Assembly: GCA_000002435.2 (NCBI GenBank)
Contig: CM018791.1
Origin: Giardia intestinalis
Taxonomy: Eukaryota
Length of the DNA stretch: 64,000 nucleotides
Direction: 5' to 3' (one strand)
The notes under the pieces are model-generated. The model worked only from the letters and a program-made list of their open reading frames with translations. It was not told the origin of the DNA and did not search any database. Shown here in pieces: positions 60,186-60,920 of this stretch (positions are counted from its first letter, which is position 1; the number at the start of each line of letters is the position of its first letter). A program made the translations under genes and the position numbers.

Positions 60186-60530
60186 ATGAGCTTCAAATGT
60201 GACAACCAGGTCGACTTCATGGTCTTGCAGCGTGAGAGAGAAGCGCGCGAAGAAAAATCCCGTGCAGAGTGGGAGGCTAAATTTGGTCGTCCATATACGG
60301 CCTCCTGTGTTGCGTCCTACAACTTAACCGACTACTGCAGAGAGCAGTTCGGGCTTCCAAAGAGGCAGCGATCTGGCGCTGAGGATGGACTCACAGTAAT
60401 TCCAGAGCCCTATAGACGGGCTGTCCGGCCAAAAACGGAGGGCGATGTTATCGGATTATATAGGGATGATTATGATCAAAAGCTGTTCAATCCGCACAAG
60501 TATGGAATTCGCCGCACGGTATTCGACTGA
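60186..60530 (+). CDS. Small conserved hypothetical protein (114 aa), paralogue A of a tandem pair
   Basis: ATG at 60186 with an A-rich leader. It shares an ordered motif set with the downstream ORF: W(E)..FG..Y..SC..SY.L.D.CR..FGLP.R...(8-10)...IPEPYRR..R......IG...DD. Confidence 0.45.
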   Translation: MSFKCDNQVDFMVLQREREAREEKSRAEWEAKFGRPYTASCVASYNLTDYCREQFGLPKRQRSGAEDGLTVIPEPYRRAVRPKTEGDVIGLYRDDYDQKLFNPHKYGIRRTVFD

Positions 60531-60575
60531 TCTTTAGGTCAAAACACTCTCTGTGTCAGCTTCAATTTACATAAA

Positions 60576-60920
60576 ATGCCAGCGGACCCCATTGACGCCG
60601 TTTCTGAAATCGAGAATACGCGCAGGCGAGAAAAGCACATAGAGGACTTAGCCAGGAAGTGGGAACAGCGCTTTGGTTCTGAGTACGTTCAGTCATGCGC
60701 TGACAGCTACAGACTTAGAGACGAATGTAGGGTACACTTTGGCCTCCCAGAGCGCTCGGTTGTTCAAGAAAATTGGTCTATCGATAGAATTCCGGAGCCA
60801 TATCGCAGAACTGACCGTCTAGAACTAACCTCAGATACGATTGGGTACTTCCAGGACGACTTTGAAGGCCGGATCTTTCCTCGTAGAGAGCATGCGCCCA
60901 AACGCGTTCCATTCACTTGA
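60576..60920 (+). CDS. Small conserved hypothetical protein (114 aa), paralogue B of the tandem pair
   Basis: ATG at 60576 with leader tcaatttacataaa. It has the same length and motif order (KWEQRFGSEYVQSCADSYRLRDECRVHFGLPER...IPEPYRRTDR...TIGYFQDDF), about 35% identical to paralogue A. Confidence 0.45.
   Translation: MPADPIDAVSEIENTRRREKHIEDLARKWEQRFGSEYVQSCADSYRLRDECRVHFGLPERSVVQENWSIDRIPEPYRRTDRLELTSDTIGYFQDDFEGRIFPRREHAPKRVPFT

What the first reader, a model, noticed from the sequence alone, without database searches (positions are those of the whole stretch)
60186..60920. Tandem pair of diverged 114-aa paralogues with a conserved Cys/aromatic motif set (IPEPYRR family)
Two adjacent same-strand genes of identical length share W..FG..Y..SC..SY.L.D.CR..FGLP.R ... 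IPEPYRR..R ... IG...DD in the same order at about 35% identity. This indicates an old tandem duplication maintained under selection. I do not recognise the family. Their size, charge and conserved aromatic-proline motifs would fit small cytoskeleton- or axoneme-associated proteins such as microtubule inner proteins, but that is speculation.
Basis: seen in the sequence. Interest (0 to 1): 0.5.

Follow-up and report, generated by a model that had tools for sequence, protein, structure and literature searches.

The report
Giardia pair of CIMIP1-like ciliary proteins
Two neighbouring, anciently duplicated small Giardia genes annotated only as "hypothetical" are real, expressed and conserved, and are most likely very divergent relatives of animal proteins (CIMIP1, SPMIP1) that line the inside of flagellar microtubules.

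Summary
Window 60186-60530 and 60576-60920 (+) encode two 114-aa proteins, Giardia intestinalis WB GL50803_8980 and GL50803_8979. They are 39% identical over 98 aa (E 3e-23) and share the listed motifs in the same order. Both are under strong purifying selection and both are transcribed. A tree places the duplication before the G. intestinalis/G. muris split.

The family is not Giardia-only. Homologues exist in G. muris, Hexamita, Spironucleus and three unnamed sequences. The Cys pair (CX9C) is Giardia-specific; the W-x3-[FY]-G helix, the P-x-x-[YF] segment and the T-S-D-x-I-G-[LY]-[WYF] motif are family-wide.

Neither Giardia protein hits Pfam or the PDB directly. Through the other diplomonads the family links to B-tubule microtubule inner proteins:
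- Pfam LLC1/CIMIP1 is the best or only hit (E 2e-4, below the curated cut-off).
- The top three of 177,635 PDB sequences are SPMIP1/ATP6V1FNB and CIMIP1.
- hhalign against vertebrate CIMIP1 gives 84.5% probability (P 7e-6).

The aligned N-terminal helix largely coincides with the part modelled inside sea-urchin doublet microtubules.

Verdict: a probable, unproven (about 0.6) new divergent member of a known kind. Localisation is untested.

The parts
60186..60530 (+). CDS of GL50803_8980 (114 aa plus stop), the paralogue orthologous to the single G. muris gene
   Evidence: ORF; identified; pN 0.074 against pS 0.85 versus a divergent Giardia lineage; groups with G. muris at 95% bootstrap; transcript at logCPM 3.81
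60576..60920 (+). CDS of GL50803_8979 (114 aa plus stop), the second paralogue. It keeps the ancestral 'ELTSD-x-IG' motif but has a derived C-terminal end
   Evidence: ORF; identified; pN 0.109 against pS 0.78; transcript at logCPM 4.89; motif comparison
60207..60323 (+). 8980 residues 8-46: long N-terminal helix ending in W29-x3-F33-G34. This region aligns with the N-terminal helix of CIMIP1 and SPMIP1
   Evidence: AF2 helices 8-33 and 35-46, with pLDDT about 86 for residues 11-30; hhalign and HMMER alignments
60597..60713 (+). 8979 residues 8-46: the same N-terminal helix module (W29-x3-F33-G34)
   Evidence: Alignment with 8980
60306..60338 (+). 8980 C41-x9-C51, a Cys pair specific to the genus Giardia
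   Evidence: Invariant in all Giardia sequences including G. muris; replaced in Hexamita, Spironucleus, P0009, P0010 and P0013
60696..60728 (+). 8979 C41-x9-C51, the same Giardia-specific Cys pair
60348..60359 (+). 8980 F55-G-L-P58. In the relaxed hhalign extension it aligns with the 'IELP' segment of CIMIP1
60738..60749 (+). 8979 F55-G-L-P58
60399..60419 (+). 8980 I72-PEPYRR78. The family-wide form is [IL]-P-x-x-[YFM]-[RKQ]
60789..60809 (+). 8979 I72-PEPYRR78
60438..60461 (+). 8980 residues 85-92, 'EGDVIGLY': the SNYG/Mn-like motif, with D87 and G90 invariant family-wide
   Evidence: compare CIMIP1 'TQGFIGW' and CFAP144 'ENQEVGW' at similar positions
60828..60851 (+). 8979 residues 85-92, 'TSDTIGYF': the SNYG/Mn-like motif in its ancestral form
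60531..60575 (+). 45-bp spacer between the paralogues. It ends in an AT-rich stretch (caatttacataaaATG) directly before the start codon of 8979
   Evidence: Sequence. Not conserved in sequence or length (82 bp) in the divergent Giardia lineage. A promoter role is inferred from general knowledge of short AT-rich Giardia initiators and was not tested
60050..60185 (.). 136-bp divergent intergenic region between the ankyrin-repeat gene (-) and 8980 (+). It ends in the AT-rich stretch 'aaaatttagaatttcATG'
   Evidence: function inferred only

Best explanation
GL50803_8980 and GL50803_8979 are two paralogous, non-globular microtubule inner proteins (MIPs) of the flagellar doublet microtubules. They belong to a diplomonad-wide family that is a very divergent relative of the animal B-tubule MIPs CIMIP1 (C20orf85/LLC1) and SPMIP1 (ATP6V1FNB), which fall in the 'SNYG-module' group.

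Proposed mechanism, all inferred:
- The long N-terminal amphipathic helix (about residues 8-46) carries the conserved pattern E-x-x-x-R-x-x-W-x-x-[KR]-[FY]-G. It would lie along the luminal face of B-tubule protofilaments. In sea urchin the corresponding segments of CIMIP1 and SPMIP1 sit on B07-B08 and B07-B10 with 48-nm periodicity.
- The extended C-terminal half would thread along the lattice.
- The T-S-D-x-I-G-[LY]-[WYF] motif would dock at a tubulin interface, as Mn/SNYG motifs do. The following short helices would contact the neighbouring tubulin.
- The proteins would help stabilise Giardia's eight long axonemes.

The duplication is old. It arose in the Giardia lineage before the G. intestinalis/G. 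muris split, and both copies have been kept. This suggests they occupy two non-equivalent sites, as the related animal MIPs CIMIP1, SPMIP1 and CFAP144 do side by side.

What is shown: the genes are real, paralogous, conserved and expressed, and the family has weak but consistent sequence links to CIMIP1 and SPMIP1. What is inferred: true homology, location in the B-tubule, and the binding mode.
For: **Real genes**
- The pair matches at E 3e-23.
- pN is 0.07-0.11 against saturated pS.
- Both are transcribed and co-regulated. They fall on host-cell contact among a down-regulated set the authors describe as including kinases, cell-cycle regulators and cytoskeletal proteins.

**Family extent**
- An exhaustive HMM search of 1.84 billion representatives finds only eight hits. 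These include G. muris, Hexamita inflata and Spironucleus salmonicida, all flagellates.

**Link to MIPs**
- Hexamita P0011 hits Pfam LLC1 (PF14945) as its only family, E 2.3e-4.
- LLC1 is also the top hit for the consensus of the whole family (E 1.3e-3) and of the non-Giardia members (E 2.2e-4). It is the only hit for P0015 (E 0.062), out of 24,736 families.
- The non-Giardia profile against 177,635 PDB sequences gives as its top three ATP6V1FNB/SPMIP1 8snb_1i (E 0.012), CIMIP1 9v10_Ea (0.069) and 8otz_P (0.077).
- With the Giardia sequences included, CIMIP1 is the only PDB hit.
- hhalign against a 16-species vertebrate CIMIP1 alignment gives 84.5% probability, P 6.9e-6 for the non-Giardia profile. 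For the whole family it gives 52.6%, P 1.4e-4.
- That whole-family score of 30.6 compares with 11.5 +/- 2.4 (maximum 24.5) in 400 column shuffles, and 12-14 for reversed alignments.
- hhalign against the SPMIP1 N-terminus gives 70.9%, P 3.8e-5. This is stronger than CIMIP1 against SPMIP1 themselves (15.8%, P 1.6e-3).
- All alignments use the same register (W-x3-aromatic-G).

**Match to the structurally ordered region**
- The aligned region lies within or largely overlaps the parts built in the sea-urchin doublet: CIMIP1 residues 11-68 on B07-B08, and SPMIP1 residues 2-35 on B07-B10.

**Collinear weaker anchors**
- FGLP aligns with IELP, and T-S-D-x-I-G with T-T-Q-G-F-I-G-W. The distance from W to the IG is 61 against 63 residues.

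**Physical character**
- AF2 gives a confident N-terminal helix and no globular fold (pTM 0.28), as expected for a MIP.
- Size, pI and aromatic/proline content resemble CIMIP1 and CFAP144.
Against: - No single statistic reaches a conventional threshold. The Pfam scores (14-22 bits) are below the LLC1 gathering score of 27.3. The PDB E-values are 0.01-0.6.
- The two Giardia proteins themselves give no Pfam or PDB hit. They score only about 1 bit against a vertebrate LLC1 HMM, and the Giardia-only profile gives P 0.02. The link is therefore transitive.
- Significant similarity is confined to about 34 residues of a charged helix.
- The C-terminal half alone finds nothing in the PDB at E <= 10.
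- The conserved CIMIP1 C-terminus (SCKG...WP-x-QG) is absent.
- The strict SNYG consensus is not matched.
- No localisation or proteomic evidence was found.
- No homologue was picked up in the solved doublet structures of other protists.
Confidence: 0.62

Rival explanations
1. They are lineage-specific (diplomonad-only) small proteins of some other, unknown cellular role. The resemblance to CIMIP1 and SPMIP1 would then be chance or convergent similarity of a charged amphipathic helix that ends in W...[FY]G.
For: - All links are sub-threshold and cover only about 34 residues.
- The Giardia proteins alone do not hit.
- The C-terminal half has no support.
- Foldseek finds nothing.
- Only eight representatives exist among 1.84 billion sequences.
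Against: - Five different queries pick the same Pfam family out of 24,736.
- The three best of 177,635 PDB sequences are all B-tubule MIPs from two separate families.
- hhalign P values are 7e-6 and 4e-5 against two families.
- The shuffle and reversal nulls are far lower.
- Further motifs are collinear in the same order.
Confidence: 0.24
2. They are MIP-like proteins that mainly serve Giardia-specific stable singlet-microtubule arrays (ventral disc, median body, funis) rather than axonemal doublets. They could, for example, be among the molecularly unidentified inner densities of ventral-disc microtubules.
For: - Disc microtubules carry MIP densities (PMC3439489 listed; review PMC13071381).
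- The duplication and the Cys pair are Giardia-genus features.
- 8980 falls together with median body protein and an ankyrin repeat protein on host-cell contact.
Against: - The family predates the disc. Hexamita and Spironucleus have it and, from general knowledge, lack a ventral disc.
- The closest relatives, CIMIP1 and SPMIP1, are B-tubule doublet proteins.
- The genes were not found in the main text of the disc literature searched.
Confidence: 0.1
3. They are CHCH-like or redox/metal-binding small proteins built around the CX9C pair.
For: C41-x9-C51 is invariant in both paralogues and in G. muris.
Against: - There is only one CX9C, not the twin motif.
- The cysteines are replaced in all non-Giardia relatives.
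- No CHCH or other Pfam hit appears even at E 10.
- No globular helix-hairpin fold is predicted.
Confidence: 0.03

Closest known systems
CIMIP1 (C20orf85, LLC1; Pfam PF14945), a ciliary B-tubule microtubule inner protein
   Same: - Small size (114-121 aa against 125-137 aa) and non-globular character.
- An N-terminal helix with the pattern N-x-V/L...E-x-E-A-R-x-x-W-x-x-x-[WFY]-G, aligned in the same register.
- This helix is the part ordered in the sea-urchin doublet (residues 11-68, B07-B08, 48 nm).
- A following [FI]-x-L-P segment, then a T-x-x-x-x-I-G-[WYL] motif about 61-63 residues after the conserved W.
- It is the best Pfam hit and among the best PDB hits.
   Different: - Scores stay below the Pfam gathering threshold, and the Giardia proteins are not detected directly.
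- The proline-rich 'PSPPVPKTTQGFIGWRS' block appears only as 'ELTSDxIG'.
- The conserved CIMIP1 C-terminus (SCKG...WP-x-QG) is missing. It is replaced by DD[FY][DE]xx[LI]F...H..[KR]...[FL]D.
- Giardia adds a CX9C pair.
SPMIP1 (ATP6V1FNB), a B-tubule MIP of sea-urchin and mammalian sperm doublets
   Same: - The N-terminal helix 'QNFW-x-E-x-x-x-E-x-x-x-R-x-x-W-x-x-KYG' matches the diplomonad pattern 'QEFHR-x-x-I-x-x-E-x-x-x-R-x-x-W-x-x-KYG', including the KYG.
- It is the best PDB hit of the non-Giardia profile (E 0.012), and hhalign gives 70.9% probability.
- Residues 2-35 are built on B07-B10.
   Different: - SPMIP1 is longer (176-188 aa), with additional ordered C-terminal segments (104-187).
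- Similarity was tested only for the N-terminal 50-60 residues.
- Recent structural work lists it among sperm-specific doublet proteins in mouse.
CFAP144 (FAM183A/B, FAP144), a B-tubule MIP on B07-B08
   Same: - Similar size.
- By eye, 'TE-x-QE[IV]GW...LINPERH' resembles 'LTSD-x-IGLW...LFPP-x-x-H', and the N-terminal helix is similar in style.
- It belongs to the same SNYG subgroup as CIMIP1 and SPMIP1 according to PMC10973386.
   Different: There is no statistical support. CFAP144 chains never appear at E <= 10 with any family profile, including the C-terminal-only profile.
SNYG-module MIPs as defined by Andersen et al. 2024 (PIERCE1/2, CFAP90, CFAP144, CIMIP1, C2orf50, SPMIP1, SPMIP11, FAP85/90/182)
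   Same: - A short motif with an invariant glycine preceded by a hydrophobic residue and a polar or Thr/Ser position.
- A short predicted helix follows on the C-terminal side. The motif is at residues 85-91 and the predicted helices at 96-100 and 103-106.
   Different: - The strict consensus [ST]-N-x-x-[ILVY]-G is not met. Asp or Ser replaces the Asn position. CIMIP1 and human CFAP144 also fail the strict pattern.
- The structural docking at the tubulin interface is untested.

Membership tests
Pfam PF14945 LLC1 (CIMIP1/C20orf85) | Whole-protein score at or above the curated gathering threshold (27.3 bits) | tested here: not met
   - Neither Giardia protein has any hit at E <= 10.
- Hexamita P0011 scores 22.2 bits.
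- The family consensus scores 19.8 bits, the non-Giardia consensus 22.3 bits, and P0015 14.4 bits.
Pfam PF14945 LLC1 (CIMIP1/C20orf85) | N-terminal helix with conserved E...A...W-x3-W-G-[FY] | tested here: met
   - It is present as E-x-x-x-R-x-x-W-x-x-x-[FY]-G, aligned in the same register by HMMER and hhalign.
- hhalign P is 6.9e-6 for the non-Giardia profile and 1.4e-4 for the whole family.
- Column-shuffle null maximum is 24.5 against the real score of 30.6.
Pfam PF14945 LLC1 (CIMIP1/C20orf85) | Invariant 'SPP-x-P-x-TT-x-x-x-IGWRS' block | tested here: inconclusive
   Only 'T-[ST]-D-x-I-G-[LY]-[WYF]' is present, at the equivalent distance from the conserved W (61 against 63 residues). It aligns only when the hhalign MAC threshold is relaxed and adds no significant score.
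Pfam PF14945 LLC1 (CIMIP1/C20orf85) | Conserved C-terminal 'W-P' motif (invariant W131-P132 in vertebrates; 'NWPMQGI' in sea urchin) | tested here: not met
   It is absent from all 12 family members. They end in ...[LI]F-x-x-x-x-H-x-x-[KR]-x-x-x-[FLW]-[DT].
Pfam PF14945 LLC1 (CIMIP1/C20orf85) | Location in the lumen of the ciliary B-tubule (B07-B08, 48-nm repeat) | not testable with these tools
   The CIMIP1 location is taken from PMC11834534. No Giardia doublet structure or localisation data for 8979/8980 were found.
SNYG-module MIPs (Andersen et al. 2024, PMC10973386) | Motif [ST]-N-x-x-[ILVY]-G with invariant Gly | tested here: inconclusive
   - The strict regular expression matches no family member.
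- The observed forms are T-S-D-T-I-G (8979), E-G-D-V-I-G (8980) and T-S-D-E-I-G (Hexamita), with G90 and D87 invariant.
- The accepted members CIMIP1 (T-Q-G-F-I-G) and human CFAP144 (E-N-Q-E-V-G) also fail the strict pattern.
SNYG-module MIPs (Andersen et al. 2024, PMC10973386) | Short associated alpha-helix C-terminal to the motif | tested here: inconclusive
   AF2 predicts short helices at 96-100 and 103-106, just after the motif (85-91), but with pLDDT of only about 50-60.
SNYG-module MIPs (Andersen et al. 2024, PMC10973386) | Motif docks at the alpha/beta-tubulin interface on the luminal surface | not testable with these tools
   This needs a cryo-EM structure or a complex prediction with a tubulin lattice.
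SPMIP1 / ATP6V1FNB | N-terminal helix 'RQNFW-x-E...R-x-x-W-x-x-KYG' | tested here: met
   - P0011 against 8snb_1i gives E 0.18.
- The non-Giardia profile gives E 0.012, the best of 177,635 sequences.
- hhalign gives 70.9% probability, P 3.8e-5.
SPMIP1 / ATP6V1FNB | Remaining ordered segments of SPMIP1 (residues about 104-187) | not tested
   Only residues 5-62 of SPMIP1 could be retrieved. The diplomonad proteins are 60-70 residues shorter.
Twin-CX9C (CHCH) proteins | Two CX9C motifs in a helix-turn-helix | tested here: not met
   There is a single CX9C, present only in Giardia, and no Pfam CHCH hit.

The most novel reading that the evidence does not exclude
The diplomonad family may be an ancestral-like link between CIMIP1 and SPMIP1. 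It matches each of them better than they match each other. That would push this B-tubule MIP module back to the last eukaryotic common ancestor.

In Giardia, the anciently duplicated pair may have been specialised. One possibility is a heteromeric or alternating luminal pair marked by the genus-specific Cys pair. Another is that one copy was redeployed to the hyperstable singlet microtubules of the ventral disc, whose inner densities I believe to be still molecularly unidentified (my own understanding, not checked here).
Probability: 0.12. Interest if true: 0.6.

Novelty: new member of a known kind. Interest (0 to 1): 0.4.

Why it matters
**Candidate Giardia MIPs.** Giardia's eight axonemes have long cytoplasmic, membrane-free segments, and its disc is among the most stable microtubule structures known. 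No Giardia doublet-microtubule structure or MIP assignment turned up in my searches. These two 'hypothetical proteins' would be concrete, easily tagged candidates.

**Evolutionary reach.** The only solved CIMIP1 and SPMIP1 chains found here come from mammals and sea urchin. A metamonad relative that bridges the two would suggest that this B-tubule module is ancient. It would also suggest that many 'orphan' small proteins of protists are unrecognised MIPs.

**Annotation.** It gives a testable label to a family that has no Pfam assignment.

The result is incremental rather than surprising, and it rests on remote homology.

Tried and rejected
- **Direct Pfam scans of both Giardia proteins at E <= 10:** nothing.
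- **Direct PDB sequence searches with each protein and with the Giardia-only profile:** only noise, such as xylosidase, an adhesin and an antibody chain at E 0.1-1.5. These were rejected as chance.
- **Word-indexed homologue searches:** only Giardia orthologues were found.
- **AF2 models:** low confidence apart from the N-terminal helix (pLDDT 51 and 64).
- **Foldseek against the PDB:** no meaningful hit, best E 7.4.
- **C-terminal-half profile against the PDB:** no hit at E <= 10. The eye-catching resemblance to CFAP144 and CFAP90 that I first recalled from memory is therefore not supported statistically.
- **Global hhalign:** not significant, P 0.015.
- **Literature searches for the gene IDs, for localisation data and for a Giardia doublet structure:** only one RNA-seq paper was found.
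- **CHCH/CX9C idea:** rejected because the Cys pair is single and Giardia-specific.
- **Bacterial-type promoter/terminator scan:** irrelevant for this eukaryote.
- **Second copy at the G. muris-like or P0009 loci:** none found.
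Full report
**1. The observation**

The window contains two same-strand ORFs of 114 codons at 60186-60530 and 60576-60920, 45 bp apart. They lie between an ankyrin-repeat gene (57878-60049, minus strand) and a CBM20-GH77 4-alpha-glucanotransferase gene (60934-63975, minus strand).

BLASTP of one ORF against the other gives 38/98 identities without gaps, E 3e-23. Global identity is 35%. tblastn finds no other copy in the window.

Exact look-up identifies them as GL50803_8980 and GL50803_8979 of Giardia intestinalis WB. Both are 'hypothetical protein', with orthologues in the DH, GS, P15 and assemblage B genomes.

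It is invariant across both paralogues in several Giardia lineages.

**2. Are they genes, and how old is the duplication?**

A divergent Giardia lineage (loci L005-L007) keeps the same tandem pair between the same neighbours. Nei-Gojobori counts against L006 are:

| Gene | pN | pS |
|---|---|---|
| 8980 | 0.074 | 0.85 |
| 8979 | 0.109 | 0.78 |
| ankyrin flank | 0.158 | 0.71 |
| GH77 flank | 0.12 | 0.84 |

Synonymous sites are saturated while the proteins are held. The spacer between the two genes is not conserved.

Both transcripts are present in published RNA-seq of WB trophozoites, at logCPM 3.81 (8980) and 4.89 (8979). Both fall on contact with Caco-2 cells: log2FC is -1.9 to -2.2 for 8980 and -1.06 to -1.26 for 8979. 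8980 is among the 32 genes down fourfold or more. That list includes MAD2, NEK and CDK kinases, an SMC protein, median body protein and an ankyrin repeat protein (PMC7461913).

A G. muris-like contig has a single copy at the syntenic position next to GH77. It shows no trace of a second copy. In a neighbour-joining tree the G. muris protein groups with 8980 at 95% bootstrap, and the Giardia clade has 89% support. G. muris and 8980 also share the derived 'KTE[GT]D' where 8979 and the outgroups have 'ELTSD'.

The duplication therefore predates the split of the two Giardia species. G. muris has either lost or moved the 8979-type copy.

**3. Extent of the family**

The two word-indexed searches found only Giardia orthologues. 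An exhaustive HMM search of 1.84 billion representatives with a Giardia-only profile found eight proteins:

- the two Giardia clusters and a frameshifted variant;
- G. muris (E 2e-34);
- two unnamed sequences, P0009 and P0010 (E 1e-15 and 1e-14);
- Hexamita inflata (7e-11);
- Spironucleus salmonicida (2e-8);
- an unnamed relative of Spironucleus, P0013 (5e-7) (identifications).

All are 93-135 aa. Family-wide invariant positions are W29, G34, Y37, R52, P73, D87, G90 and F101. The two cysteines (C41-x9-C51) are confined to the genus Giardia.

**4. What the family resembles**

Neither Giardia protein hits Pfam at E <= 10. PDB hits with each protein and with the Giardia-only profile are noise. 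The less derived relatives give a consistent lead.

*Pfam.*
[quoted passage not shown] E is 2.3e-4 and the score 22.2 bits, against a gathering score of 27.3.
- LLC1 is the top hit for the HMM consensus of the whole family (E 1.3e-3) and of the non-Giardia members (E 2.2e-4). It is the only hit for P0015 (E 0.062).

*PDB.*
- The 12-sequence family profile has a single hit in the whole PDB, bovine sperm-doublet chain 8otz_P 'C20orf85 homolog' (E 0.63).
- The non-Giardia profile has as its three best hits sea-urchin ATP6V1FNB/SPMIP1 (8snb_1i, E 0.012), mouse CIMIP1 (9v10_Ea, 0.069) and bovine CIMIP1 (0.077).

*Profile-profile comparison.* I recovered real CIMIP1 sequences from the PDB and the protein database and built a 16-species vertebrate alignment.

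| Comparison | Probability | P | Score |
|---|---|---|---|
| Non-Giardia profile vs CIMIP1 | 84.5% | 6.9e-6 | 37.8 |
| Whole family vs CIMIP1 | 52.6% | 1.4e-4 | 30.6 |
| Non-Giardia profile vs SPMIP1 N-terminus | 70.9% | 3.8e-5 | 29.7 |
| CIMIP1 vs SPMIP1 (benchmark) | 15.8% | 1.6e-3 | 22.0 |
| Giardia-only profile vs CIMIP1 | 2.3% | 0.02 | 18.8 |

- The whole-family score of 30.6 compares with 11.5 +/- 2.4 (maximum 24.5) in 400 column shuffles, and 12-14 for reversed alignments.
- The diplomonad family therefore sits between CIMIP1 and SPMIP1, matching each better than they match each other.

*Register and structural meaning.*
- Every alignment uses the same register: ...E-x-x-x-R-x-x-W-x-x-x-[FYW]-G.
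- According to the table in PMC11834534, the residues built in the sea-urchin doublet are 11-68 for CIMIP1 (B-tubule, B07-B08, 48 nm) and 2-35 plus C-terminal parts for SPMIP1 (B07-B10). The aligned helix largely coincides with these ordered parts.
- Andersen et al. (PMC10973386) place CIMIP1, SPMIP1, CFAP144, CFAP90 and the PIERCE proteins in one 'SNYG-module' group.

*Weaker anchors.* With a relaxed alignment threshold the match extends collinearly. FGLP aligns with IELP, and T-S-D-x-I-G with T-T-Q-G-F-I-G-W. The spacing from W to the IG is 61 against 63 residues.

**5. Limits of that evidence**

- The link is transitive. Giardia sequences alone score about 1 bit against a vertebrate LLC1 HMM.
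- Only the N-terminal helix of about 34 residues is statistically supported.
- The C-terminal half alone finds nothing in the PDB. CFAP144 is never hit, although by eye its 'QE[IV]GW...LINPERH' resembles 'SD-x-IGLW...LFPP-x-x-H'.
- The conserved CIMIP1 C-terminus is absent.
- The strict SNYG pattern is not matched, though CIMIP1 and CFAP144 also fail it.
- AF2 gives a confident helix at 8-33 (pLDDT about 86) followed by low-confidence, non-globular chain (pTM 0.28). This is what a MIP would look like, but it is not diagnostic. Foldseek finds nothing.
- No localisation, proteomic or structural data on these genes were found. The library holds no Giardia doublet structure.

**6. Most likely function**

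I take the pair to be two non-equivalent luminal proteins of the flagellar B-tubule, related to CIMIP1 and SPMIP1. The N-terminal helix would lie on the protofilament surface. The C-terminal extended segment would carry a Mn/SNYG-like glycine motif that docks on tubulin. My confidence is about 0.6.

Retention of both copies since before the G. muris split suggests two distinct binding sites or partners. Animal doublets likewise place CIMIP1, SPMIP1 and CFAP144 side by side on B07-B10.

The rivals are:
- an unrelated diplomonad-specific family whose helix resembles the MIPs by chance (about 0.24);
- MIP-like proteins mainly of the ventral disc or median body (about 0.1). The family's presence in disc-less Hexamita and Spironucleus disfavours this as the ancestral role;
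- a CX9C redox or metal-binding protein (about 0.03).

**7. Novelty and verdict**

The genes are annotated as hypothetical proteins, have no Pfam assignment, and appear in the searchable literature only in an RNA-seq table. The CIMIP1/SPMIP1 link appears to be new.

If it is true, this is a new and very divergent member of a known kind of protein, not a new kind of system. It fails the formal Pfam membership test, so I file it as 'CIMIP1/SPMIP1-like', not as an LLC1 member.

Noticed in passing
window 60306-60338 and 60696-60728: The C41-x9-C51 pair is invariant in both paralogues and in G. muris. It is replaced by F/W/L and T/A in all other diplomonad relatives. This is a genus-specific gain with no explanation.
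   Followed up: partly
window 60921-60933: Only 13 bp separate the stop codon of GL50803_8979 (+) from the stop codon of the convergent GH77 glucanotransferase gene (-). The 3' ends and polyadenylation signals of the two transcripts must overlap or be extremely short.
   Followed up: no
protein P0003 (Logan assemblies, 2 contigs): This is a 105-aa variant of 8980. It starts at the internal Met12 and is identical to 8980 over residues 12 to about 83. It then continues in another frame (…PKRRAMLSDYIGMIMIK…). It could be a frameshift allele or an assembly error in some isolates.
   Followed up: no
L009 4631-4843 (unnamed diplomonad-like contig, Logan SRR31929897): A 70-aa ORF lies just upstream of the single family member P0009. 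It has a very weak tblastn match to 8979 (E 0.1). This could be chance or a decayed tandem copy. The contig also carries tubulin-tyrosine-ligase and kinase genes.
   Followed up: no
window 60934-63999 (-) and L001-L006: The GH77/CBM20 4-alpha-glucanotransferase ORF is listed as 1013 aa from the ATG at 63975. The reading frame stays open to the window end. The same gene is called at 1157-1200 aa on other assemblies, so the true start is uncertain.
   Followed up: partly
L005-L007 2541-2918: Gene callers give the 8980 orthologue of the divergent Giardia lineage as 125 aa. The extra N-terminal extension (LVWLDKIQNL) starts at a non-ATG codon. This is probably a gene-calling artefact, because the conserved ATG follows directly.
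   Followed up: partly
PMC7461913, Table 2 and supplementary tables: GL50803_8980 is among the 32 genes most strongly down-regulated on host-cell contact. Others in that list include MAD2, CDK and NEK kinases, an SMC protein, median body protein and an ankyrin repeat protein. This hints at expression coupled to the cell cycle or to cytoskeleton biogenesis.
   Followed up: partly
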